A DNA stretch of 64,000 nucleotides from an uncultured Eubacteriales bacterium (GTDB taxonomy: Bacteria > Bacillota > Clostridia > Christensenellales > CAG-138). Below the pieces are notes generated by a model, which worked only from the letters and a program-made list of their open reading frames with translations, did no database searches and was not told where the DNA came from. Shown piece by piece: positions 4,110-54,118 of the stretch (position 1 is the first letter of the stretch; each line of letters begins with the position of its first letter). The stretch is from assembly GCA_902798825.1 (NCBI GenBank), contig CADBYI010000010.1, positions 16,518 through 80,517 of the forward strand, given 5' to 3'. The position numbers and the translations under genes were made by a program.

Positions 4110-4582
4110 ATATCACCGTTCTGGCCGTGGGCAAGCTAAAGGATCGGTTCTTCGAGGAGGGCTGCGCCGAATACAGCAAGCGCCTTCAGCGCTACTGCAC
4201 CTTCACGGTCCGGGAAGTGCCGGACGAGCGGGCCCCGGAGGAGCTGTCTCCCGCCCAGGAGGAGCAGGTGAAGGCCCGGGAGGGGAAGCGGCTGCTGAGC
4301 CTTCTGGACCCCAAGGACCATGTGATTGCCCTGACGGTCACGGGCAAGGCCTACACCTCCGAGGGACTGGCAGCGCGAATCGGCGCCCTGCGGGACCAGG
4401 GGCGGAACGTGAGCTTTTTGATCGGCGGCTCGCTGGGCCTCTCCAAGGAGGCGGTGGACCGGGCGGACGAGGAGTTGAGCCTGTCCAAGCTGACGTTGCC
4501 CCATCGCCTGGCCCGGCTGGTGCTGCTGGAGCAGCTCTATCGGAGCTGGAAGATATTGAACCACGAGACGTATCATAAATGA
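4106..4582 (+). CDS. rlmH: 23S rRNA (pseudouridine1915-N3)-methyltransferase
   Basis: 158 aa. MNITVLAVGKLK...EY.KRL start and the C-terminal SLSKLTLPH...R..L.EQLYR motif of the SPOUT RlmH family. Confidence 0.9.
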   Translation: MNITVLAVGKLKDRFFEEGCAEYSKRLQRYCTFTVREVPDERAPEELSPAQEEQVKAREGKRLLSLLDPKDHVIALTVTGKAYTSEGLAARIGALRDQGRNVSFLIGGSLGLSKEAVDRADEELSLSKLTLPHRLARLVLLEQLYRSWKILNHETYHK

Positions 4583-4602
4583 CAGAAAAGGAGACAAAAC
4601 CC

Positions 4603-6558
4603 ATGAAACGAACCATCTCCCTGCTGCTGGCGCTGGCCATGCTGCTGAATCTGGCAGGCTGCATCCGGGTGCCTAACCTGACCATCAGCGAAGCCACCGC
4701 TGCCCCGGCTGTCACCGCCGAGCCTACGGCGGAACCCACGGCTGAGCCCACCGCCGAACCCACAGCCGAGCCTACGGAGGAACCGACGGCGGAACCAACG
4801 GCTGAGCCCACGGAGGAACCCACCGCGGAGCCGACGGAGGAGCCCACGGCAGAACCCACAGCGGAACCCACGGCGGAACCCACCGAGGCGCCCAAGCAGG
4901 ACACCTGGGCGGACATCGACAGGGACTTCTTCCGGGAGTATCTTTCCAGCGACCTCACCTCGCTCCATCAGATGGTGAAGGACCCCTCCAAATTCGGCAT
5001 CGACTACGACAGCGTGGAGCGCACGCTGGGCACTTTCCTGCCGGATGAGAACCGGGAGTGGTATACGTTTGAGGAGGGCATCCTGGAGCGGATGGAAAAG
5101 CTGGACAGGAGCGCTCTGTCCGAGCAGGACCAGATGGCCTATGATACCCTGCATCAGTTCATTACCTGGGACCTGGAGGGGGAGGAGTTCTACGGCTACT
5201 ATGAGCCTTTGACGGAGCTCACCGGCATCCAGACGGACATCCCCATCGTGTTCTGGTTCTATGAGCTGAACACCAAGCAGGACGTGGAGGACTATCTGAC
5301 CCTCATGGCGGATATGCCCCGGTTCTTCGACGATCTGCTGGAGTATGAGCGGTATCGGGCCGAAAAGCTGAACATCTTCATGCCCAAGGCCAGCCTGGAC
5401 AACATCATCGCAAACGATCTGGAACCCATCCTGGCGGCCCGGGAAACCAGCTTCCTGATCCCCCTGTTCAACGAGCGGGTGGCCCAGGTGCCGGGTCTCA
5501 CCGAGGAGGAGATCCAGGCCTATGAGGAGAGGAACCTTTCCCTGGTCACCAACGAATACTATCAGGCCTTCCTGAATCTGAAGGAGGGCTTGGAGGCCCT
5601 GCGCCCCTACTGCCGGGAGCCCATGGGTGTGAAGGAAACCGGGGACGAGACCTATTTGCGCTGGTTCGCCTATCAGCTGAAGGTCACCTGTGACGAGGAG
5701 GCGGACCCCGAGACCCTGAGCAACCGCCTGCTGGACAGCCTCAACAAGGCCATGAACGACTATACCCTGGCGGCCAAGCTGGGCGGCAGGGACCCCCGCG
5801 TCACCTCCGCCGGCACCGTGGAGGAGAACATCGCCTATTTGCACCAGGTCATGGACCCCCTGTTCCCGGCCATCCCCGAGGTGGACGTGGAGTATGAGGA
5901 CATGCCCGAGGAGTTGCGGAACGGTCGGTCCACGGCCTTCTATCTCATCTCCCCCTTCGACGACTGGCAGGTGAACCATATCGTGGTGGCCGATCCGGAG
6001 AACAACATCAACCTGATCTCCACCCTGGCCCACGAGGGGATCAACGGCCATATGTATCAGTATGTGTACCATCGATCCATGCCGGGGCTGAGCCTGACCC
6101 AGCAGCTGCTGGAGGGCACCGCCTATGCCGAGGCCTGGAGCCAGTATTCCGAGCGGCTCTTCGCCCGGCGCTGCGGCAACCCCTTCAACTCCGTCGACAT
6201 GCAGTACGATCACGCGTTCACCATCGTGTTCTACGCCCTGCTGTTCTATTTGAGCATCCGGGTGAACTACTTCGGCGATTCCTTCATCACCGCCTACCAG
6301 ACCTTCACCGACTACTTCAGCGTGCCCCAGGATACCTTCATGGACGCCTACTATGACACCTACATCGTGGGCAACCCCTTCTACGGCATGCCCTACGCCT
6401 ACGGCTATGCCCGGCTCGTGGAGCTGCACGATATCGCCAAGGCGGCCCTGGGCACCAAGTACAATCAAAAGGCCTTCGACGCCCAGTATCTGAGCTACGG
6501 CCCCTCTTACTTCAACCTTCTGGCCGATCGGCTGGAGCAGTGGGCGGCGGCGCAATAA
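4603..6558 (+). CDS. DUF885-family lipoprotein with (A/E)EPT linker
   Basis: ATG 4603 has AAAGGAG 9 nt upstream. Signal peptide with lipobox LLNLAGC. 14 tandem (A/E)EPT units. The globular part has the metallopeptidase-like HEGINGHMYQ motif typical of DUF885. The track start at 4579 is possible but lacks an SD. Confidence 0.75.
   Translation: MKRTISLLLALAMLLNLAGCIRVPNLTISEATAAPAVTAEPTAEPTAEPTAEPTAEPTEEPTAEPTAEPTEEPTAEPTEEPTAEPTAEPTAEPTEAPKQDTWADIDRDFFREYLSSDLTSLHQMVKDPSKFGIDYDSVERTLGTFLPDENREWYTFEEGILERMEKLDRSALSEQDQMAYDTLHQFITWDLEGEEFYGYYEPLTELTGIQTDIPIVFWFYELNTKQDVEDYLTLMADMPRFFDDLLEYERYRAEKLNIFMPKASLDNIIANDLEPILAARETSFLIPLFNERVAQVPGLTEEEIQAYEERNLSLVTNEYYQAFLNLKEGLEALRPYCREPMGVKETGDETYLRWFAYQLKVTCDEEADPETLSNRLLDSLNKAMNDYTLAAKLGGRDPRVTSAGTVEENIAYLHQVMDPLFPAIPEVDVEYEDMPEELRNGRSTAFYLISPFDDWQVNHIVVADPENNINLISTLAHEGINGHMYQYVYHRSMPGLSLTQQLLEGTAYAEAWSQYSERLFARRCGNPFNSVDMQYDHAFTIVFYALLFYLSIRVNYFGDSFITAYQTFTDYFSVPQDTFMDAYYDTYIVGNPFYGMPYAYGYARLVELHDIAKAALGTKYNQKAFDAQYLSYGPSYFNLLADRLEQWAAAQ
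4717..4884 (+). repeat. 12-bp tandem repeat (14 units) encoding (A/E)EPT
   Basis: gcN gaR ccN acN repeated 14 times in frame within the DUF885 lipoprotein gene. Confidence 0.9.
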
Positions 6559-27399: not shown

Positions 27400-29618
27400 A
27401 AAAGTTCCCCTATCTGACCTTCTTCTCCACCTGGCTGCTGGTCTTCTGCGGCACGCTGGGCGCGCCCCTGTGCGTGGTCACGGCCTATGATCTGCCCCAC
27501 CATCTGGGGACCATGATCCTGGCCGCCGCCCTCATCAGCGGGTTCATGACGCTGCTGTTCACCATGCCCGAGCTGGGGGTGTATATGCTGATCCCCTTCG
27601 GCGTCACGGTGCTGCTGGTCAGCGTCTTCCGCTGGAAAAAGCTCTATAGCGGCGCGGCGGTGGCCATCCGCACCATCCAAAGCGTGCTCTCCCGGACCCT
27701 GGCCTTCATCCCCGACCCCGGAAATCTTCCGGCGGGGACGGAGAACTATGCCTATTTCATCGGCTTTTTCGTGGGCGCGGTCATGGTGGCCATGGCCCTG
27801 CTCATCAGCTGGGGCCTGGTGTCCGGGGAATCCATGTTTCTGCCTTTTTTGGTGCCCCTGCCCCTGGTGGCCCTGTCCCTCATCTACACGGATATGCCCC
27901 CCGCCGGCTGGGCGGGGGTGCTGGTGTGCCTCTATTACGGCGGCGTGCTGTTCACCGGCGGGCTTCGGCTCCATCAGGGAGGCGGCATCGGCAGGGTCAC
28001 CCTGCTGGCCCTGGCGGCGCTGCTGCTGACCATCGGCTTGCTGGTGAAGCTGCTGCCCCGGTCCGAATTCGAGCCCATGTCCACCCAGGAGCGGGTGGAG
28101 CAGGTCATGCGCCAGGTGGCCAGCGCCTGGGAACGGATGAGCCGGCTCATGGACCGGGACATTCGGGAGCGGGAGGATTTGAGCCGGGAGGGTGAGCTCA
28201 AATCCACCGGCGAGCACATCATGGACGTGAAGACAACCCAGGCCGGCCGGCTGTACCTGCGGGGCACCTCCTACGGTCAGTACGACGGCCGGTATTGGAC
28301 CATCGCCGGCGAGTATCCCCAGGGGGAATCCCTGTTCACCCTGGGCGGCTCCCTGCCCGATCCCAAGGAGCGGGTGGACGTGCGCGGCGCAGATACCTCC
28401 CTGATCTACACCCCCTATGCCCTGGTCAAGGGCGGGATCGATGGCCAGGTCCGAGAGAACTATATCGTTGCCGACAGGGCCCTTTCCGCCTACAGCTGGA
28501 ACGTCCGGTCCGTGCCCGCCCGGCTGACGCCCCGGCTGGGAAACGAGGCGGAGCAGGCCTACGCCGCCTGGGCCAAGCGGACCTATGTGACCTTGAGCCG
28601 GGCGAAGCGGGAGGCGTTCCTGGCGTTTTTGAGCCCCTATGAGCTGCCGGGCACCGACGACCCCTACGCCCTGGCCCAGGCTATGGCGGCCCTCATCCGG
28701 GGCAACGCGGAGTACGATCTGGAACCGGGGGACACCCCCAGGGATCAGGACTTCGCCCTGTACTTTTTGACGGTGCGCAAGCGGGGCTACTGCGTCCACT
28801 ACGCCAGCGCCCTCACCGCCCTGCTGCAGGCGAAGGGGGTCCCGGCCAGGTTCGTGGTGGGGTATGTGCTCATGGTGGACCAGGCGGACACCTGGGTGGA
28901 GGTCACGGACAAAAACGCCCACGCCTGGACCGAGGTCTATGTGGACGGCTGGGGCTGGCTGCCCGTGGAGGCCACCGGTGGGGACGATCCCCGGCTCGAT
29001 ATGCCCGCCCCGGAGGCGGATGACCCCGGCGAGGAGCCGGATCAGGCCACCCCGGAGCCCAGCGGGGAACCGGAGGACACGGCGGAGCCGGAGGATACCC
29101 CCGAGCCCACGCCGGAGCCCACCCCGGAACCGACCCCCGAGCCCACCCCCGAACCCACGCCGGAGATACAGGTGACCACGCCCACGCCGGAGAGCTCCGA
29201 CAGCGGCACGGCCACCCCCACCCCCGAAACGTCCCCGGCGCCGGACCCGGAGGGGGGCAACCGGCGATCCTTCGTCCTTTGGCTGCTGTGGCTGTTGCTG
29301 CTGCCGGTCCTGATCTTCCTCTATATCCGGCTGCGGCGTCGGATCGTGAGAAGCCGCATGGAGCGGATGCTCCGGGGCGACGGCAAACAGGCCGTGCTCT
29401 ACGGCTATGGGGAGCTGCAAAAGCTCGTGCGCCACGGGGCAGACGCCAATGCCCAGGCCCGGGCCCTGGCGGACGAGGCCGCCTTCTCCGACCACGCGTT
29501 GGGGGAAGAGGAGAAGCGCGCCATGGCCGGATACGTCCGGGCGGCTCGGCGGGAGCTGGAGGGGAAGCTGCCCTGGTATACGCTGTGGTATTTGAGATAC
29601 CTGCTGTGGCTGTGGTGA
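27396..29618 (+). CDS. Transglutaminase-like polytopic membrane protein with PEPT-rich segment
   Basis: ATGA overlap with the upstream gene. About 6 N-terminal TM helices. Core RGYCVHYASAL...GVPARFVVGY...HAWTEVYVDGWGWLPVEAT (Cys-His of the transglutaminase core). C-terminal TM. Confidence 0.85.
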   Translation: MKKFPYLTFFSTWLLVFCGTLGAPLCVVTAYDLPHHLGTMILAAALISGFMTLLFTMPELGVYMLIPFGVTVLLVSVFRWKKLYSGAAVAIRTIQSVLSRTLAFIPDPGNLPAGTENYAYFIGFFVGAVMVAMALLISWGLVSGESMFLPFLVPLPLVALSLIYTDMPPAGWAGVLVCLYYGGVLFTGGLRLHQGGGIGRVTLLALAALLLTIGLLVKLLPRSEFEPMSTQERVEQVMRQVASAWERMSRLMDRDIREREDLSREGELKSTGEHIMDVKTTQAGRLYLRGTSYGQYDGRYWTIAGEYPQGESLFTLGGSLPDPKERVDVRGADTSLIYTPYALVKGGIDGQVRENYIVADRALSAYSWNVRSVPARLTPRLGNEAEQAYAAWAKRTYVTLSRAKREAFLAFLSPYELPGTDDPYALAQAMAALIRGNAEYDLEPGDTPRDQDFALYFLTVRKRGYCVHYASALTALLQAKGVPARFVVGYVLMVDQADTWVEVTDKNAHAWTEVYVDGWGWLPVEATGGDDPRLDMPAPEADDPGEEPDQATPEPSGEPEDTAEPEDTPEPTPEPTPEPTPEPTPEPTPEIQVTTPTPESSDSGTATPTPETSPAPDPEGGNRRSFVLWLLWLLLLPVLIFLYIRLRRRIVRSRMERMLRGDGKQAVLYGYGELQKLVRHGADANAQARALADEAAFSDHALGEEEKRAMAGYVRAARRELEGKLPWYTLWYLRYLLWLW
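29099..29166 (+). repeat. 12-bp tandem repeat encoding (PEPT)n
   Basis: ccN gaR ccN acN units, 5-6 copies, in frame in the transglutaminase-like gene. Confidence 0.85.
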
Positions 29619-29632
29619 AACGGGAGGAAGCT

Positions 29633-30103
29633 ATGGATACTATGAACGAAGCCGCCCGGCGTCGGGAGAACCTGGCCCTGGCGGCGCTGGTCAAGACCTT
29701 CGGCGTCATATTGCTGGTGGCGGGCATGGTCGTTCTGCTGCTGGGGGCCTTTGCCTTCGACAGGGACCGAAGGAGCCGAAACGCCATGAGCAAAGCCATG
29801 GCCACGGTGACGGAGGAATACATCCACGGCGGGGCCTATTACATCACCTACGAAGCCGACGGCGCCACCCATGAGGCCCTCCTGGCATATGAGAAGGGGA
29901 ATCTGAACGCGGGGGATCGGGCGGAGATCCTGTACGATCCCCTGGAGTACGGCAACGTGCGCACGGACGCCCCGGCGTCCACGCCCATCAAGATCGTGGC
30001 GGGCGGGGTCCTGGGCTTGGCCACAGGGGGCCTCTTCCTGTTCCTCCAGGCGTTCCTCAAGCGCAGGCTGGACAATCCCTGGCATGACGAGAGCCAATCC
30101 TGA
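29633..30103 (+). CDS. DUF3592-like two-TM membrane protein
   Basis: ATG 29633 preceded by GGGAGG. 156 aa with TM, a ~90-aa beta-rich segment, then TM, the layout of DUF3592 proteins. Last gene of the MoxR cluster. Confidence 0.5.
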   Translation: MDTMNEAARRRENLALAALVKTFGVILLVAGMVVLLLGAFAFDRDRRSRNAMSKAMATVTEEYIHGGAYYITYEADGATHEALLAYEKGNLNAGDRAEILYDPLEYGNVRTDAPASTPIKIVAGGVLGLATGGLFLFLQAFLKRRLDNPWHDESQS

Positions 30104-30112
30104 ACAAACAAA

Positions 30113-30150
30113 AAGCCCGGTTCCAAGGGAAGGAGCCGGGCTTGTTTCTT
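30113..30150. terminator. Bidirectional intrinsic terminator
   Basis: aagcccggttcc-aagggaa-ggagccgggctt stem (one G-U), followed by gtttctt on +. Preceded by aaaaa, giving ttttt on the minus strand. Confidence 0.8.
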
Positions 30151-30205
30151 GCCGACAGCACGCAGAGGCTGGCTGCGTCAGAGGGGCAAGCAGGAGGCGG
30201 GAAGG

Positions 30206-30367
30206 TTAGATGGGGCCCAAACCGGACACGATCAGGGGGCAGCCGCTGCCGGTGTGGATGTAGTCACTGATCTGTGTGTTGAGCACGTCGATATCCAGCT
30301 CAAAGGTTTCATAGGCCGCCGCCTGGGGCAGCCGGGAACGGGATTCCGCTTTCAACCGTTTGTTCAT
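30206..30367 (-). CDS. Small protein or peptide of 53 aa, unknown function (absent from the ORF track)
   Basis: ATG 30367 to TAA 30206 encodes MNKRLKAESRSRLPQAAAYETFELDIDVLNTQISDYIHTGSGCPLIVSGLGPI. AAGGAG lies 6 nt upstream of the ATG. Third codon positions are mostly G/C, as in neighbouring genes. Has its own TTGACA-17-TATCCT promoter and a downstream terminator. Confidence 0.65.
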   Translation of the reverse strand: MNKRLKAESRSRLPQAAAYETFELDIDVLNTQISDYIHTGSGCPLIVSGLGPI

Positions 30368-30424
30368 GATGATCTCCTTTCCTGTGTCAAGCTTTGTATG
30401 GGACGTTTGTTCTTTTCTGGCTTC

Positions 30425-30453
30425 AGGATACAGCGGAAAGATATCGTTGTCAA
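30425..30453 (-). promoter_or_regulatory. Sigma-A-type promoter of the 53-codon gene
   Basis: Minus strand: TTGACA (30453-30448), 17-nt spacer, TATCCT (30430-25). Confidence 0.6.
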
Positions 30454-30475
30454 ACTGTTAATAGTTGTATATAAT
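30447..30475 (+). promoter_or_regulatory. Promoter of the LysR-family gene
   Basis: TTGTCA (30447-30452), 17-nt spacer, TATAAT (30470-30475). Its -35 overlaps the -35 of the divergent promoter on the other strand (shared ttgtcaa). Confidence 0.6.
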
Positions 30476-30492
30476 ACAAACAGAATTTGTAT
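30465..30492. promoter_or_regulatory. Two overlapping dyad symmetries, candidate LysR-type operator
   Basis: ttgtat-ata-atacaa (30465-30479) and atacaaa-cagaa-tttgtat (30474-30492). The ATAC/GTAT half-sites resemble LTTR boxes. Confidence 0.5.
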
Positions 30493-30506
30493 TTTGGGGG
30501 CGCAAC

Positions 30507-31436
30507 ATGAACTTTCAGAGCATACAATACTTTTTGCAGGTGGCGCGGCGGCGGAGCTTCTCCCAGGCGGCGGAGGAGCTGTTCATCACCCAGCAGACCC
30601 TGAGCGCCAGCATCGCCTCCCTGGAGAAGGAACTGGGCTGCCGGCTGTTCCTTCGCCACATCCCCCTGGAGCTGACCTACGGCGGGGAGCTGTTCTTGCA
30701 GTACGCCACCGCCTACTGGCAGGAGTACGAGCACATGAACCGGGATTTTGCCGAGCTCGGGGCGGGGGTCCGGGGGCGTCTTAGAGTGGGGGTGGCCAGC
30801 GTCCGCGGCCGGCTCCTGCTGCCCAAGGTCATCCATGCCTTTCATGAGCTTCATCCCCTGGTGGAGGTGGAGATGGTGGAGGGGAAGAACGACGCTCTGC
30901 TGGAGGCCCTGCTGGAGGGGGAGATCGACCTGGCTATCGCCGATTTTCCCGGGGCGAGCCGGGGCGTCGCCATGGAGCCCTATTACGAGGACGAGATCGT
31001 GCTGGCCCTGTCCAACGGGCTGCTGAAGGCTCACTTCGGGGACCGCATGGAGGAGCAGCGGGCGGCCCTCATGAAGACCCGGGACATCCGTCTGCTGGCG
31101 GACGTGCCCTTCCTCATGAGCAGCGCCCTGAGCGTGTCCGGCCGCATCGCCCGAAAGCTGATCCGCCAGGCCGCCATCCTGCCCACGATCAAGGCCACCT
31201 CCGGCAACATGGAGACCCTTATCGAGATGTGCCGCCTGGGGGAGGGGGCCTGCTTCTGTTCGGAAAAGCTGCTGACCTTCCTTCTGGACCGGGAGCAGTT
31301 GAAGACCATGACCGTCCTGCGTTTTCCCGACGGCGGGACCCGCCACACCGTCCAATTCGGCTGGCCGGAACAGGAGAAGGCGTGGGGCCTGCGCAGCGAT
31401 TTTGTTCGCCTGGCCAAGCGCGCGGAGACGGTATAG
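30507..31436 (+). CDS. LysR-family transcriptional regulator
   Basis: MNFQSIQYFLQVARRRSFSQAAEELFITQQTLSASIASLEKELGCRLF is a canonical LTTR wHTH. 309 aa. GGGGG lies 6 nt upstream of the ATG. Confidence 0.9.
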   Translation: MNFQSIQYFLQVARRRSFSQAAEELFITQQTLSASIASLEKELGCRLFLRHIPLELTYGGELFLQYATAYWQEYEHMNRDFAELGAGVRGRLRVGVASVRGRLLLPKVIHAFHELHPLVEVEMVEGKNDALLEALLEGEIDLAIADFPGASRGVAMEPYYEDEIVLALSNGLLKAHFGDRMEEQRAALMKTRDIRLLADVPFLMSSALSVSGRIARKLIRQAAILPTIKATSGNMETLIEMCRLGEGACFCSEKLLTFLLDREQLKTMTVLRFPDGGTRHTVQFGWPEQEKAWGLRSDFVRLAKRAETV

Positions 31437-31457
31437 CCAAGACCGTCCCCTTTTTTT
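31424..31457 (+). terminator. Weak intrinsic terminator after the LysR gene
   Basis: Short stem gacggt/accgtc with flanking G-C pairs, followed by a 7-T run (31451-31457). The stop codon sits in the loop. Confidence 0.5.
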
Positions 31458-31519
31458 GCAATCTTTCGATGCCCTCCCGTGTCCTATTGGCAGAAACGCG
31501 TTTCAAGAAAGGAAACAAC

Positions 31520-31957
31520 ATGACGGAAGGACCGAACACACACGACGTGACCACCCGGGAGGGGTTTGCGACGGCGGCGGCGCCCCTGGAGCGGCTGCTG
31601 CTCTCCGTAAGCTATGGGGTGCTCCACAGCTGGGATCTGGCGGCGGACGCGGTGCAATCCGCCCTGCTCAAGGGCTGGCGCTATCGCCACAGCGTGAAGG
31701 ACGTGGACAGCTTCAAGCCCTGGCTGGTGAGGATCGCCATCAACGAGAGCAAGAACATGATGCGCCGCGGCTTCACCGTGGAGCTGGTGTACGCCCTGCC
31801 CGAAAAGTACCGGCTGCCGGTGATCCTGTTCTACTTTGAGGACATGGCTGTGGCTGACATCGCCAAGGCTCTGGACATTCCCCAGGGCACCGTGATCTCC
31901 CACCTCCACCGGGGGCGGGCGCGCTTGAGAGAGGAGCTGAAAGATTATTATGAATAA
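31520..31957 (+). CDS. Compact ECF-type sigma-70 family factor (145 aa)
   Basis: Region 2: DLAADAVQSALLKGW....DSFKPWLVRIAINESKNMMRR. Region 4: LPEKYRLPVILFYFEDMAVADIAKALDIPQGTVISHLHRGRARL. Only about 8 residues link them. Confidence 0.8.
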   Translation: MTEGPNTHDVTTREGFATAAAPLERLLLSVSYGVLHSWDLAADAVQSALLKGWRYRHSVKDVDSFKPWLVRIAINESKNMMRRGFTVELVYALPEKYRLPVILFYFEDMAVADIAKALDIPQGTVISHLHRGRARLREELKDYYE

Positions 31958-33371: not shown

Positions 33372-33446
33372 GGGAAGGTCGACAGGGAGAAATCCTTGTG
33401 ATATCATAATGGAGAATATTGTCCTGCCTCTCTTAGACCAATGCCG

Positions 33447-33528
33447 TTCAGAGGTCCTTCGCTACGCTCAGGATGACAATGGGGAGGGACCTAAAAACTG
33501 TCAATCCTGAGCGAGGGCCGAACACCTG
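33447..33528. repeat. REP-like palindromic element, upstream copy (degenerate second arm)
   Basis: ttcagaggtccttcgctacgctcaggatgacaat (33447-33480) with a degenerate partner tgtcaatcctgagcgagggccgaacacctg (33499-33528). A third partial arm cgaaggatctctgaacgcaatacc ends at 33610. Confidence 0.75.
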
Positions 33529-33627
33529 AAAAAGACTGCTGTGCGGCCTTTTCAGAGAGGCCGGGCGAAGCGTCAGCGACCGAGTCGAAGGATCTCTGAA
33601 CGCAATACCTTTCACAGGAGCTGTCTC

Positions 33628-33933
33628 ATGTATTACGTCTACATCCTGACCAACAAGACCAACACCACCGTGTACATCGGCGTGACCAATGACCTCCTGC
33701 GGCGGCTGCAGGAGCATCGAAACGATCTTGTTGACGGCTTTACAAAAAGGTATCACGTCCACAAGCTGGTGTACTTTGAATCCACCACGGACGCCCAGGC
33801 CGCCATCGCCCGGGAAAGGCAGCTGAAGGGCTGGCGGCGGGCCAGGAAGGATGAGCTGATAGAAAGGACTAATCCTGCGTGGATCGACTTGGCAGCGGAT
33901 TGGTTCACCGCGGGTCCGATACCGCGTTCGTGA
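33628..33933 (+). CDS. GIY-YIG nuclease family protein (UPF0213-type)
   Basis: AGGAG 7 nt before the ATG. MYYVYILTNKTNTTVYIGVTNDLLRRLQEH...KLVY.E......AI.RE.QLKGW.R.KK is the GIY-YIG signature. 101 aa. Confidence 0.9.
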   Translation: MYYVYILTNKTNTTVYIGVTNDLLRRLQEHRNDLVDGFTKRYHVHKLVYFESTTDAQAAIARERQLKGWRRARKDELIERTNPAWIDLAADWFTAGPIPRS

Positions 33934-33957
33934 AGCGGCTCCTATGAGCCGACACGG

Positions 33958-34071
33958 TTCAGAGATCCTTCGCCTGCGGCTCAGGATGACAAAGAGGGGG
34001 TATGTGGAGTGTTACAAGACGGAGGTCGTCAAAAAAACTTGTCATCCTGAGCGCAGCGAAGGACCTCTGAA
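33958..34071. repeat. REP-like palindromic element, downstream copy (intact inverted repeat)
   Basis: ttcagagatccttcgcctgcggctcaggatgacaa (33958-33992) and ttgtcatcctgagcgcagcgaaggacctctgaa (34039-34071) are ~33-nt inverted arms with about 4 mismatches, separated by 46 nt. Confidence 0.85.
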
Positions 34072-34118
34072 CGCAATAGCTTATACGCAGACCGCTGGCT
34101 CTCCCGACTATACAGAAA

Positions 34119-52335: not shown

Positions 52336-52417
52336 TATTCGTACAAATTTCGAATAAATCGTCAACAAATCGCGTCCGCTATTTCCTTTTTGGTGAATGT
52401 ATGATATATACAGAGCT

Positions 52418-54118
52418 ATGAAAAAGCAATTGTGTCTGATCATCGCTCTCGTCCTATTGGCGGGATTCATAACCGTAACCCCCTCGACCGCGGCGGCCAG
52501 CAGCGGCCCGGCCCCTGCTGCCGGGCAACCGGCGGTCCTGGCTGACCCGGAGTATCTGCCCGGAGACGATCAGCCGGACGGCACCGTTTTGGGCACCGTG
52601 CTGGCGGAGTCCCTGACCCTTTGGGCGGAGGAGTACGAGGGAAGCGGCTCCCTGGGCGAGTTCGAAGCCGGCCAGGTGGTCTACATCTTCTATCGGACCG
52701 GGGATTTCTACTACGTGCAGATCCCCAGCACGGAGCTCATGGGCTATATGCTGGCGGAAAGCGTGGAGGCCCAGGACCCTGTCCCCGAGCCCACGCCGGA
52801 GCCCACGGAGGAACCGACGCCGGAACCTACGGAGGAGCCCACGCCGGAGCCCACGGAGGAACCCACGCCGGAGCCCACGGAGGAACCCACGCCGGAGCCC
52901 ACCGAGGAACCCACGCCGGAGCCCACCGAGGAACCCACGCCGGAGCCCACCGAGGAACCCACGCCGGAACCCACCGAGGAGCCCACGCCGGAGCCCACCG
53001 AGGAACCCACACCGGAGCCCACTGAGGAGCCCACACCGGAGCCCACGGAGGAGCCCACCGCCGAACCTACGGCAGAGCCTACCTCCGAGCCCACAGCAGT
53101 GCCCACGGACGTGCCCACGGCTGAACCCACAGCGGTGCCCACGGACGTTCCCACGGCCGAACCTACAGCGGCGCCCACGGATGTGCCTACCGCCGAACCC
53201 ACGGCTGAACCCACTGCAGCCCCCACGACCGAGCCGGTGGTGATTCCCACCGCCGAGCCAACGGCGGAGCCCACGCCTGTGCCTACGGACGAGCCCACCC
53301 CGGTGCCCACGGACGTGCCCACGCCCACGCCGGAGCCCACGCCCACCGAGGAGCCGGATCAGCCCAGCGGAACCATTCAGGGCGTCATCACCGCCAATAC
53401 CCTGGCCATCCGGACCGGCCCGGCTTCCAGCTATCAGGCCCTGGGCCAGTGGTATGAGGGACAGCTGGTGTACATCTATTACCAGGAGGATTCCTACTAC
53501 TACCTCAAGATCCCCGGCACGAACATCGAGGGCTATGGCGCTGTGAAGTATATCCAGCCCGACGGCGACGTCCCCGTGATCCAGCGGGCCACGCCCACCC
53601 CCACGCCCAGCGGCCCCTACACCGAGCCCACCTGGCAGATGATCGAAAACGCGGAGGATGCCGTGGCCACCAGCAGCGGCGTGCACGTGCGCAAGGGCCC
53701 CAGCACCAAGTACGGTCTGGCGGACAGCGACCTGAAGAAGGGCATGGAGCTGACCGTGTATTTGAGGGATGGGGATTGGTACTTCCTCCGGGTGGACAAG
53801 ACCGGCAAGTACGGCTACGTCCACAAGAATTACGTGAAGCTGACCGACGACGACGAGCCCACGCCCAAGCCCACCAAGCGGACAAGCGACGATGACGACG
53901 ACGATTCCGAACCGTCCATCCGCCTGAGCCAGGGCGACGTGAACGGGGACGGCCTGATCTCCGCCGCGGACGCGGCCATGGTGATGCGGTACGACGCAGG
54001 CCGGATCGAGCTTTCCAGCGCCCAGCTGAAGGCGGCGGATATGGACGGAGACGACCAGGTCACCAGCATGGACGCCAGGGCCATCCTGCGGTACGTGGCC
54101 TCCCGCCTGGCCAGATGA
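52418..54118 (+). CDS. Secreted protein: three SH3b-like domains, long PEPT/AEPT linker, C-terminal dockerin
   Basis: Signal peptide MKKQLCLIIALVLLAGFITVTPSTAAA. SH3b-like G..V.......(Y/F)Y(Y/F)(V/L).(I/V) segments. C-terminal GDVNGDGLISAADAAMVMRY and ADMDGDDQVTSMDARAILRYVA dockerin repeats. The track start at 52397 is less likely. Confidence 0.7.
   Translation: MKKQLCLIIALVLLAGFITVTPSTAAASSGPAPAAGQPAVLADPEYLPGDDQPDGTVLGTVLAESLTLWAEEYEGSGSLGEFEAGQVVYIFYRTGDFYYVQIPSTELMGYMLAESVEAQDPVPEPTPEPTEEPTPEPTEEPTPEPTEEPTPEPTEEPTPEPTEEPTPEPTEEPTPEPTEEPTPEPTEEPTPEPTEEPTPEPTEEPTPEPTEEPTAEPTAEPTSEPTAVPTDVPTAEPTAVPTDVPTAEPTAAPTDVPTAEPTAEPTAAPTTEPVVIPTAEPTAEPTPVPTDEPTPVPTDVPTPTPEPTPTEEPDQPSGTIQGVITANTLAIRTGPASSYQALGQWYEGQLVYIYYQEDSYYYLKIPGTNIEGYGAVKYIQPDGDVPVIQRATPTPTPSGPYTEPTWQMIENAEDAVATSSGVHVRKGPSTKYGLADSDLKKGMELTVYLRDGDWYFLRVDKTGKYGYVHKNYVKLTDDDEPTPKPTKRTSDDDDDDSEPSIRLSQGDVNGDGLISAADAAMVMRYDAGRIELSSAQLKAADMDGDDQVTSMDARAILRYVASRLAR
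52787..53355 (+). repeat. 24-bp tandem repeat (about 11 near-identical units, then degenerate 12-bp units) encoding PEPTEEPT / AEPTAVPTDVPT
   Basis: gagcccacgccggagcccacSgaggaaccc units are near-perfect from 52787 to about 53050. Degenerate variants continue to about 53355. Confidence 0.9.

What the first reader, a model, noticed from the sequence alone, without database searches (positions are those of the whole stretch)
30206..30367. Unlisted 53-codon gene with a RiPP-leader-like FELD motif, divergent from a LysR regulator
The minus-strand ORF (ATG 30367 to TAA 30206) is below the size cutoff of the supplied track. It encodes MNKRLKAESRSRLPQAAAYETFELDIDVLNTQISDYIHTGSGCPLIVSGLGPI. It has every hallmark of a real gene. 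AAGGAG lies 6 nt upstream of the ATG, and third codon positions are mostly G/C, as in its neighbours. It also has a consensus TTGACA-17-TATCCT promoter and a hairpin plus T-run terminator downstream. The charged N-terminal half contains F-E-L-D-I-D-V, which resembles the F(N/D)LD box of class I lanthipeptide and thiopeptide leaders. The C-terminal 15 residues (TGSGCPLIVSGLGPI) are Gly/Ser/Thr/Cys-containing and hydrophobic, like a core peptide. No LanB/C/M, YcaO, radical-SAM or peptidase/exporter gene lies nearby. It is therefore either an orphan precursor modified in trans or an uncharacterised LysR-controlled small protein. I do not recognise the sequence as any named family.
Basis: partly seen in the sequence, partly recalled or inferred. 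Interest (0 to 1): 0.6.

Follow-up and report, generated by a model that had tools for sequence, protein, structure and literature searches.

The report
LysR-paired conserved 53-residue small protein gene
The 53-codon ORF is a real, conserved small-protein gene that always sits back-to-back with one LysR-type regulator in rumen and gut Clostridia; it belongs to no named family, and the idea that it is an antibiotic-like peptide precursor is not supported.

Summary

It is a real gene. About 50 relatives of 49-59 aa exist in rumen and gut Clostridia metagenomes and MAGs. The 19 distinct coding sequences have only in-frame indels. dN/dS over the conserved C-terminal 32 codons is 0.1-0.6.

Every member whose flank could be read lies divergent from an orthologous LysR regulator (52-99% identity). 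All other neighbours differ. The intergenic DNA is more conserved than either gene. It holds two back-to-back sigma-70-like promoters and a 15-21 bp dyad. That dyad is centred about 65 bp upstream of the predicted small-gene start and lies on the predicted lysR start.

The product has a disordered basic N-terminus, an acidic amphipathic helix and a Cys-Pro hydrophobic tail. It has no signal peptide or membrane segment, and no Pfam, NCBIfam, PDB or Rfam match.

The RiPP-leader resemblance is a weak local motif. A second subfamily lacks it, and no maturase lies in the 64-kb window or beside any relative.

Best reading: an LTTR-controlled cytoplasmic small protein of unknown target. A precursor processed in trans is not excluded.

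The parts
30206..30367 (-). Small-protein coding sequence (53 codons plus TAA). Residues 1-14 are predicted disordered. Residues 22-28 carry the FELDIDV motif. Residues 26-39 form an acidic amphipathic helix. Residues 43-53 form the tail CPLIVSGLGPI.
   Evidence: Searches give the sequence. Searches give about 50 homologues. Searches show intact frames and dN/dS of 0.1-0.6 in the C-terminal 32 codons. One search is the AlphaFold2 model, with the helix at pLDDT about 90.
30374..30379 (-). Shine-Dalgarno sequence AAGGAG, six bases before the ATG.
   Evidence: AAAGGAG is present at the same spacing in the 33 loci extracted and in three further loci read directly.
30425..30453 (-). Promoter of the small gene: TTGACA (30453-30448), 17 bases, TATCCT (30430-30425). 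The predicted transcription start is near 30418.
   Evidence: 10 of 12 matches. The -35 block AACAGTTTGACAACG is invariant across the 12 aligned loci. With its adjoining block it matches exactly in 32 of 36 loci.
30447..30475 (+). Promoter of the lysR gene: TTGTCA, 17 bases, TATAAT. It lies back-to-back with the small-gene promoter and their -35 hexamers overlap. The predicted start falls inside the dyad.
   Evidence: 11 of 12 matches. The TATAAT corresponds to the conserved ATTATA of the operator block.
30473..30493 (.). LTTR-box-like dyad AATACAAA-N5-TTTGTATT. In relatives it reads ACAAAT-N3-ATTTGT, a 15-bp dyad. Its centre is about 65 bp upstream of the small-gene start and it overlies the lysR start. 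A second, overlapping dyad TTGTAT-N3-ATACAA lies at 30465-30479.
   Evidence: repeats I2 and I5. One search shows conservation. Searches show the extended operator occurs once in the window and once per related locus, with 0 expected by chance.
30507..31436 (+). LysR-type transcriptional regulator of 309 aa, the only conserved partner of the small gene.
   Evidence: One search gives HTH_1 at 1.5e-18 and LysR_substrate at 1.4e-27. Searches give orthologues at 52-99% identity, always adjacent. One search shows it is below the cutoff of every named LTTR equivalog.
30104..30143 (-). Intrinsic terminator: a 12-bp stem-loop (30113-30143) plus a T-rich tail. It is shared with the convergent 156-aa membrane-protein gene that ends at 30103.
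   Evidence: All 12 loci inspected have a GC-rich hairpin after the ORF, followed by a T-run in most.
30191..30197 (-). CCUCCUG, an anti-Shine-Dalgarno-like motif in the 3' UTR.
   Evidence: CUCCUG(A)n is conserved just 5' of the terminator in nearly all lineages, at a variable distance from the stop codon; it pairs with the gene's own SD in 4 of 10 minimum-energy folds, and in the window transcript the SD pairs with the stop-codon region just upstream of the motif. Its role was not tested.

Best explanation
The ORF is a genuine, translated small-protein gene. It is the only conserved output of a self-contained two-gene module made of a LysR-type regulator (LTTR) and this 49-59 aa protein.

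**Shown here**
- The two genes are transcribed divergently from overlapping, back-to-back sigma-70-like promoters.
- A near-invariant dyad is centred about 65 bp upstream of the predicted small-gene start. This is the classical position of an LTTR recognition site.
- The same dyad lies on top of the predicted lysR start.

**Inferred**
- The LTTR represses its own gene.
- When its unknown co-inducer is present, it activates the small gene.

**Inferred, weakest step**
- The product stays in the cytoplasm. It has no signal peptide and no membrane segment.
- It works by binding a partner protein through its conserved amphipathic acidic helix (D-x-D-x-I-x3-I-x-D-Y-I/L) and its C-terminal tail ([C/Y]-P-hydrophobic-hydrophobic-x2-G-x-G).
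- The partner could be the LTTR itself or a housekeeping protein tied to the LTTR's signal. The variable basic N-terminus would be a lineage-specific extension.
For: **A real coding gene**
- About 50 homologues of 49-59 aa were found.
- 19 distinct coding sequences from 33 loci all have an ATG, AAAGGAG at fixed spacing, and only in-frame indels.
- dN/dS over the C-terminal 32 codons is 0.1-0.6, and 0.08-0.17 within clades. The N-terminal part gives 0.04-0.11 for three pairs within one clade.
- GC3 is 0.78.

**Obligate pairing with the LTTR**
- Every locus whose flank reaches that far has the orthologous LysR gene divergent upstream. Three further contigs end in an uncharacterised upstream gene fragment, and one ends before the flank.
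- This includes the distant Lachnospiraceae subfamily, where LysR is 52% identical and the peptide 19% identical.
- Genes on both outer sides differ: MoxR/TgpA and ECF sigma; beta-lactamase/GNAT and beta-helix; Cbi operon and TctABC; peptidase M18.

**Regulatory anatomy**
- Two promoters match 10/12 and 11/12 consensus positions.
- The dyad was found by repeat search.
- A 31-specified-base operator-promoter string matches exactly in 32 of 36 loci and once per locus. It occurs once in the window, where 0 are expected.
- The LTTR DNA-binding domain is almost invariant.

**Soluble small protein**
- The highest 19-residue Kyte-Doolittle mean is 0.74 or lower.
- AlphaFold2 gives a disordered residues 1-14 and a helix at 26-39 with pLDDT about 90.

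**Precedent**
- LTTR-activated polypeptides of about 50 aa that modulate a partner protein are known: WatR and WatS1-5 (PMC10355033).
Against: - There is no expression, binding or phenotype data. The LTTR-operator link rests on position, conservation and general LTTR knowledge.
- No partner was identified.
- The AlphaFold2 model is not globular (pTM 0.43), which fits a peptide ligand or precursor equally well.
- The most conserved part is the extreme C-terminus, as in Rgg/SHP-type or ComS-type propeptides.
- At least one Cys lies within 11 residues of the C-terminus in every member, which could mark a modification site.
- A conserved anti-SD-like motif in the 3' UTR hints at an RNA-level role as well.
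Confidence: 0.5

Rival explanations
1. It is a precursor peptide, either a RiPP or a peptide pheromone. The conserved F-x-L-D strand and helix would act as a recognition leader. The C-terminal 11-13 residues (CPLIVSGLGPI and variants) would be the core. Enzymes, proteases and exporters encoded elsewhere in the genome would modify, cut and export it.
For: - Most members have F[DE]L[DN]ID followed by I-x-D-Y. This locally resembles class I lanthipeptide and thiopeptide leaders: 41% identity over 17 columns to NosM/TsrA-type leaders, hhalign P about 0.004.
- The alternating hydrophobic pattern is kept even in subfamily 2.
- The extreme C-terminus is the most conserved part and always holds at least one Cys.
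- The layout of a regulator plus a divergent small ORF with a conserved hydrophobic C-terminus recalls Rgg/SHP and ComR/ComS. This comparison rests on my own knowledge.
- The predicted structure is a single helix plus a flexible tail.
Against: - No maturase, RRE protein, leader peptidase or dedicated exporter lies in the 64-kb window.
- None lies within about 10 kb in at least five different contexts.
- There is no match to any Pfam or NCBIfam precursor model, even at E up to 10.
- hhalign probability is only 8-9%.
- The FxLD box is lost in subfamily 2.
- The tail has one Cys and no conserved Ser/Thr in a ring-forming position.
- By inspection, it has no Asp/Glu for a lasso ring, no double-glycine site conserved across clades, and no signal peptide.
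- Each of the 36 loci carries one copy, whereas precursors matured in trans are often multi-copy.
Confidence: 0.25
2. The roughly 315-nt transcript is mainly a regulatory RNA, or a dual-function RNA. The conserved CUCCUG motif in front of the terminator would act as an anti-Shine-Dalgarno seed on other mRNAs, or it would close the transcript on its own SD. The peptide would be secondary.
For: - CUCCUG(A)n is conserved just 5' of the terminator in nearly all lineages, while the spacer to the stop codon varies from 0 to about 35 nt and is itself not conserved.
- It pairs with the SD in 4 of 10 minimum-energy folds. In the window transcript the SD instead pairs with the stop-codon region just upstream of the motif.
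- The unit is a stand-alone promoter-to-terminator transcript.
Against: - Selection acts clearly at the protein level: synonymous changes dominate within clades and all indels are in frame.
- A strong SD and ATG are conserved.
- No Rfam family matches.
- SD pairing is not predicted in about half of the transcripts, and no compensatory changes were seen.
- An A-rich tract before a hairpin is also expected for a bidirectional terminator.
Confidence: 0.1
3. It is a chance ORF or a remnant of a larger gene in GC-rich intergenic DNA.
For: A 53-codon ORF is not rare in 63% GC DNA. The window has many longer spurious ORFs on both strands.
Against: - The frame, start, SD, promoter and terminator are conserved in lineages whose flanking LysR is only 52-80% identical.
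- An exhaustive HMMER search of 1.84 billion proteins found no genuine longer relative. The three long hits are eukaryotic tandem-repeat proteins whose scores are summed over 6-14 repeats.
Confidence: 0.02

Closest known systems
Classical LTTR with a divergently transcribed target gene (for example BenM/benA, CbnR/cbnA, CysB-type architecture; established knowledge)
   Same: - The LysR gene has HTH_1 and LysR_substrate domains.
- The promoters are divergent and overlap.
- A 15-bp-type dyad is centred near -65 of the target promoter and overlies the regulator's own start, which implies autorepression.
   Different: - The only conserved target is a 53-codon gene with no enzymatic or transport domain.
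- The LTTR is below the cutoff of every named equivalog. Its best match is the selenium-metabolism-associated LysR model, at 141 bits against a cutoff of 250.
- The co-inducer is unknown.
WatR-WatS1-5 small-ORF polypeptides of Methylomonas sp. DH-1 (PMC10355033)
   Same: An LTTR directly controls previously unannotated ORFs of about 50 codons. Their products modulate another protein.
   Different: - WatS peptides have a predicted transmembrane helix and act on an RND pump.
- The host is a gammaproteobacterium.
- There is no sequence similarity, and those ORFs are not an obligate divergent pair with the regulator.
Class I lanthipeptide (FNLD box) and thiopeptide (LDIDxLEISxF-type) leader peptides
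   Same: Both have a short acidic F/L-x-L-D-I/V-D motif followed by a helix-prone segment in a peptide of about 50 aa.
   Different: - hhalign probability is 8-9%.
- No NCBIfam or Pfam precursor model matches.
- No LanB/LanC/YcaO or cycloaddition genes are present anywhere nearby.
- The core lacks the Cys/Ser/Thr richness of these families.
- The motif is absent from subfamily 2.
Rgg/SHP and ComR/ComS (XIP) regulator-propeptide pairs of streptococci (own knowledge; reviewed in PMC13361665, seen but not read)
   Same: - Both are self-contained two-gene modules.
- The small ORF is divergent from its regulator.
- The hydrophobic extreme C-terminus is conserved.
- The regulator's operator lies at the peptide promoter, giving feedback wiring.
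   Different: - The regulator here is an LTTR, not an RRNPP or Rgg protein.
- The peptide is 50 aa, not 17-35 aa, and has a long acidic helix.
- There is no evidence for export or re-import.

Membership tests
Class I lanthipeptide precursor (LanA) | F(N/D)LD box in the leader | tested here: inconclusive
   F[DE]L[DN] is present in subfamily 1 but replaced by L-A-T-A-D or L-C-S-A-D in subfamily 2. hhalign to a LanA alignment gives probability 7.7%.
Class I lanthipeptide precursor (LanA) | A core with Ser/Thr and Cys positioned to form (methyl)lanthionine rings | tested here: not met
   There is one Cys (C43). The residue pattern before it varies (GSG, KGG, GNT, GRG), and the only semi-conserved Ser lies after it.
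Class I lanthipeptide precursor (LanA) | Adjacent LanB/LanC (or LanM) and LanT/LanP genes | tested here: not met
   None in the 64-kb window or in contigs with four other contexts.
Class I lanthipeptide precursor (LanA) | Match to curated precursor profiles (NCBIfam or Pfam) | tested here: not met
   No precursor family matched at E up to 1 (Pfam) or 10 (NCBIfam) for the window peptide. Three relatives, scanned against NCBIfam only, also had none.
Thiopeptide precursor | A Cys/Ser/Thr-rich core with two Ser for pyridine formation, plus YcaO/dehydratase/cyclase neighbours | tested here: not met
   The tail CPLIVSGLGPI has one Cys and one Ser. No such genes are nearby. hhalign probability is 8.6%.
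LTTR regulon target (divergent LTTR module) | Adjacent, divergently transcribed LTTR gene with HTH_1 and LysR_substrate domains | tested here: met
   The arrangement is conserved in every locus whose flank is available.
LTTR regulon target (divergent LTTR module) | Dyad operator (T-N11-A-type, 15 bp) centred near -65 of the target promoter and overlapping the regulator's promoter | tested here: met
   The dyad lies at 30473-30493 and the predicted starts are near 30418 and 30482. The operator block is unique in the window and near-invariant across loci. The dyad is ACA-N9-TGT rather than a literal T-N11-A.
LTTR regulon target (divergent LTTR module) | Demonstrated binding and co-inducer-dependent activation | not testable with these tools
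   This needs EMSA or footprinting and reporter or knock-out experiments.
RRNPP / Rgg-SHP-type peptide quorum sensing | A cytoplasmic TPR or Rgg-family receptor | tested here: not met
   The partner is an LTTR.
RRNPP / Rgg-SHP-type peptide quorum sensing | An exported, processed propeptide whose mature C-terminal part is re-imported | not testable with these tools
   There is no signal peptide or hydrophobic N-region. Export cannot be assessed from sequence.
Any named protein or RNA family | Significant match in Pfam, NCBIfam, PDB sequences, PDB folds or Rfam | tested here: not met
   The only source name found was 'hypothetical protein'.

The most novel reading that the evidence does not exclude
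The module could be a peptide-signalling circuit of a new type. The small protein would be cut to its conserved C-terminal roughly 11-mer (CPVILSGLGPM, CPLIVSGLGPI, CPLVSAGLGSL or YPLFAPGCGCD, by lineage). That peptide, or a Cys-modified form of it, would be the co-inducer bound by the periplasmic-binding-protein-like effector domain of the paired LTTR. This would give an autoinducing loop in which an LTTR, not an RRNPP or Rgg protein, is the peptide receptor.
Probability: 0.08. Interest if true: 0.85.

Novelty: new variant of a known kind. Interest (0 to 1): 0.45.

Why it matters
**What it adds**
- It is an unannotated small-protein family of about 50 sequence clusters. One variant alone was seen on 216 contigs.
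- The family is restricted to rumen and gut Clostridia.

**Why the module is unusual**
- An LTTR whose only conserved target is a 50-aa protein is uncommon. The regulatory DNA is conserved more strongly than either gene.
- A self-contained regulator-plus-small-protein module offers a tractable entry into how LTTRs use small proteins as outputs.

**What would raise or lower its importance**
- If the precursor or signal reading holds, it would be a first example of peptide-linked LTTR signalling.
- If it proves to be only a small effector, it is a modest addition to the growing list of regulator-controlled small ORFs.

Tried and rejected
- **Rfam.** A scan of 29000-31500 at E up to 10 gave only sub-threshold noise, so no riboswitch, leader or sRNA family is present.
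- **Protein and structure libraries.** Pfam and NCBIfam scans of the peptide, an NCBIfam scan of three relatives, a PDB sequence-profile search and a Foldseek search of the AlphaFold2 model found nothing meaningful.
- **Long hits in the exhaustive HMMER search.** P0002, P0006 and P0007 are eukaryotic tandem-repeat proteins with summed repeat scores, so the gene-remnant idea was rejected.
- **Mobile elements.** The operator is absent from viral contigs, and plasmids gave only generic HTH-level hits.
- **Heme-regulatory Cys-Pro motif.** Rejected as a family-wide feature because subfamily 2 has Tyr-Pro instead.
- **Other precursor features, by inspection.**
  - A double-glycine leader site (KGG|C) exists only in one clade.
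  - Lasso-peptide logic fails because there is no Asp/Glu at core positions 7-9.
  - There is no lipobox and no hydrophobic N-region.
  - The 'Pro...Pro' prolyl-oligopeptidase idea fails in the GLGSL clade.
- **Antisense ORF.** One using the reverse-complement AGGAG of the 3' motif exists in some clades but not in the GLGSL clade, so it was rejected.
- **Selenium-associated LysR.** This is the best NCBIfam hit but reaches only 141 of the 250 bits required, so it is not a member.
- **The conserved Cys249-Phe-Cys251 in the LTTR.** Noted, but it lies in the usual G-x-G strand motif and says nothing decisive.

Full report
**1. The observation**

- AAGGAG (30379-30374) lies six bases before the ATG.
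- GC content at codon positions 1/2/3 is 0.54/0.43/0.78. This is the coding pattern of the neighbouring genes.
- A consensus scan finds TTGACA-17-TATCCT at 30453-30425, matching 10 of 12 positions. It also finds a 12-bp stem-loop at 30113-30143, which on the minus strand is followed by TTTTTGTTTGTT.
- The LysR gene starts at 30507 on the plus strand and carries HTH_1 and LysR_substrate domains.

**2. Is it a gene?**

- A word-indexed search found only a 98% identical protein.
- An exhaustive HMMER search of 1.84 billion representatives added three true relatives of 49-54 aa. It also returned three eukaryotic tandem-repeat proteins, whose scores are artefacts of 6-14 summed repeats.
- Profile searches raised the family to about 50 clusters, mostly of 49-59 aa; a few longer or shorter entries on short contigs look truncated or chimeric. 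One variant alone was seen on 216 contigs. The only name any source gives is 'hypothetical protein'.
- I fetched DNA for 36 loci.
- In the 33 loci used for codon analysis there are 19 distinct coding sequences. Each has an ATG, AAAGGAG at fixed spacing, and only in-frame length changes.
- Nei-Gojobori counts give dN/dS of 0.1-0.6 for the conserved C-terminal 32 codons, and 0.08-0.17 within clades.
- The N-terminal 20 codons are saturated between clades but constrained within one clade, at 0.04-0.11 for three pairs.
None of them is met.

**3. Anatomy of the family**

- Subfamily 1 includes the window. Its pattern is a variable basic N-terminus, then F[DE]L[DN]I[DE], then x-I-x3-I-x-D-Y-[IL], a 3-5 residue linker, and C-P-[VLQ]-[IV]-x-[SA]-G-L-G-[PS]-[MIL] at the C-terminus.
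- Subfamily 2 has LysR at 52% identity. It comes from Lachnospiraceae MAG UBA6987 (L014 4864-5043) and from P0049-P0055.
- Subfamily 2 aligns end to end with subfamily 1 but reads ...[LI]-A-T-A-D-x-E-A-I-x-A-A-x-E-Y-L-E-N-G-Y-S-Y-P-L-F-A-P-G-C-G-C-D.
- Common to both subfamilies are the acidic amphipathic helix ending in [DE]-Y-[LI] and a tail of x-P-hydrophobic-hydrophobic-x2-G-x-G.
- The FxLD box and the Cys-Pro pair are therefore not universal. At least one Cys near the C-terminus is universal.
- AlphaFold2 with 37 sequences gives disordered residues 1-14, a helix at 26-39 with pLDDT about 90, a loosely structured tail, and pTM 0.43.
- Foldseek finds nothing.
- No 19-residue window is hydrophobic enough for a membrane segment, and there is no signal peptide.

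**4. Context**

The orthologous LTTR is the only conserved neighbour and is always divergent. The other neighbours vary by lineage:

| Loci | Beyond the small gene | Beyond the LTTR |
|---|---|---|
| Window, L001-L004 | 156-aa membrane protein, TgpA, DUF58, MoxR | ECF sigma and anti-sigma |
| L027-L031 | beta-lactamase and GNAT genes | beta-helix protein, Rce1-like, TetR |
| L032 | cobalamin operon | second LysR and TctABC |
| Subfamily 2 | peptidase M18 | not characterised |

- A Pfam scan of about 40 genes across the 64-kb window shows chromosomal housekeeping genes such as Obg, CdaA, BipA, RecF and nucleoside hydrolases. It shows no LanB/C/M, YcaO, radical SAM, RRE or peptidase-ABC exporter.
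- The module is absent from viral contigs and plasmids.

**5. Regulatory region**

- The 140-bp intergenic region is more conserved than either gene.
- It contains two back-to-back promoters. The small-gene promoter is TTGACA-17-TATCCT. On the other strand, the lysR promoter is TTGTCA-17-TATAAT at 30447-30475. Their -35 hexamers overlap.
- It also contains a dyad, AATACAAA-N5-TTTGTATT, at 30473-30493. In relatives this reads ACAAAT-N3-ATTTGT. A second overlapping dyad, TTGTAT-N3-ATACAA, is present.
- The dyad centre is 65 bp upstream of the predicted small-gene start near 30418. It coincides with the predicted lysR start near 30482.
- From established LTTR biology this is the geometry of a recognition site that activates the divergent target and autorepresses the regulator.
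- A 31-specified-base operator-promoter string matches exactly in 32 of 36 loci and once per locus. Three further loci carry one substitution, and one contig ends before the site. In the window the 21-specified-base operator pattern occurs once, where 0 are expected by chance.
- The LTTR DNA-binding domain is nearly invariant.
- The LTTR is below the cutoff of every named equivalog. Its best match is the selenium-associated LysR model, at 141 of 250 bits (PMC5322559). Its ligand is unknown.

**6. Mechanism**

- Shown: this is a coding gene under purifying selection. It is obligately paired with an LTTR. The promoter, operator and terminator architecture is conserved.
- Inferred from LTTR precedent: the LTTR binds the dyad, represses itself, and activates the small gene when induced.
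- Inferred and weakest: the product acts in the cytoplasm as a protein-binding effector through its helix and tail.
- The nearest functional precedent is WatR-WatS (PMC10355033).

**7. The RiPP idea**

- The local resemblance to leader peptides is real but weak.
- Curated precursor models do not match.
- The motif is missing from subfamily 2.
- The tail lacks ring-forming residue patterns.
- None of five genomic contexts has maturation genes.
- Maturation in trans cannot be excluded without whole genomes, so I keep this rival at 0.25.
- A sub-case is that the LTTR itself senses the processed tail. This is the most novel reading that the evidence does not exclude.

**8. RNA-level feature**

- CUCCUG(A)n is conserved just before the terminator at a variable distance from the stop codon.
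- It pairs with the SD in 4 of 10 minimum-energy folds. In the window transcript the SD pairs with the stop-codon region just upstream of the motif.
- It may modulate translation or stability, or act as an anti-SD seed. This was not tested.
- It does not replace the coding function.

**9. Verdict**

The 'LysR-controlled small protein' reading holds. The 'RiPP precursor' reading is not supported.
- This is an uncharacterised small-protein family in a conserved LTTR module. I rate it a new variant of a known regulatory kind and of moderate interest.

Noticed in passing
window 33379-34111: A segment of about 733 bp carrying a GIY-YIG-like ORF (33541-33933, +) is absent from the otherwise 97% identical syntenic contigs L001 and L002. 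It looks like the insertion of a small mobile element between the anti-sigma gene and the pyruvate:ferredoxin oxidoreductase genes.
   Followed up: partly
window about 31787 (ECF sigma gene, about 31520-31957 +): Relative to L001 and L002 the window lacks about 60 nt inside the sigma-70 family gene. The product is about 145 aa rather than 165 aa. The deletion appears to be in frame, between regions 2 and 4.
   Followed up: no
L005 (metagenome scaffold), 4190-5426: This is a hybrid locus. The small gene and the first 30 or so LysR codons are of the window type. The rest of LysR (97% to L027) and the outer neighbours are of the L027 type. It is either an assembly chimera or recombination within the ultra-conserved operator and HTH region.
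   Followed up: partly
window 30191-30197 (-), and the equivalent position in nearly all related loci: A conserved CUCCUG(A)n anti-Shine-Dalgarno-like motif lies immediately 5' of the terminator hairpin, at a variable distance from the stop codon. It is predicted to pair with the gene's own SD in 4 of 10 transcripts.
   Followed up: partly
window 30385-30399 (-): The 5' UTR of the window lineage repeats an operator half-site plus a TTGACA (ATACAAAGCTTGACA). It looks like a partial duplication of the promoter and operator. Among the 12 aligned loci it is seen only in the window and its near-identical relative L001.
   Followed up: no
L014, L033, L034, L035: In subfamily 2 a peptidase M18 (aspartyl aminopeptidase-like) gene is convergent just downstream of the small gene at all four loci. 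L033 and L035 also carry an Asp/Glu racemase gene. This may be plain synteny within one genus, or a functional link to peptide processing.
   Followed up: no
L033 1925-2055 and L036 about 212-320: An extra GC-rich, repeat-like insert (...GCTGTCATTGCGAGCC...GCGGAGCAGGCGCGGCGATCTC...) lies between the LysR start codon and the operator. It lengthens the lysR 5' region in these loci only.
   Followed up: no
window 31251-31259 (LysR residues 249-251): All LTTR orthologues, including the one at 52% identity, keep a Cys-Phe-Cys motif (GEG[AVI]CFC) in the effector domain. It might be a redox or metal site, given the Cys found in every peptide sequence. This was not assessed.
   Followed up: no
window 52397-54118 (+) and 4579-6558 (+): Two secreted-looking proteins carry Pro-Thr (PT) repeat linkers. 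One of them also has SH3 and dockerin type I domains. A dockerin suggests a cellulosome-like surface system in this organism.
   Followed up: no
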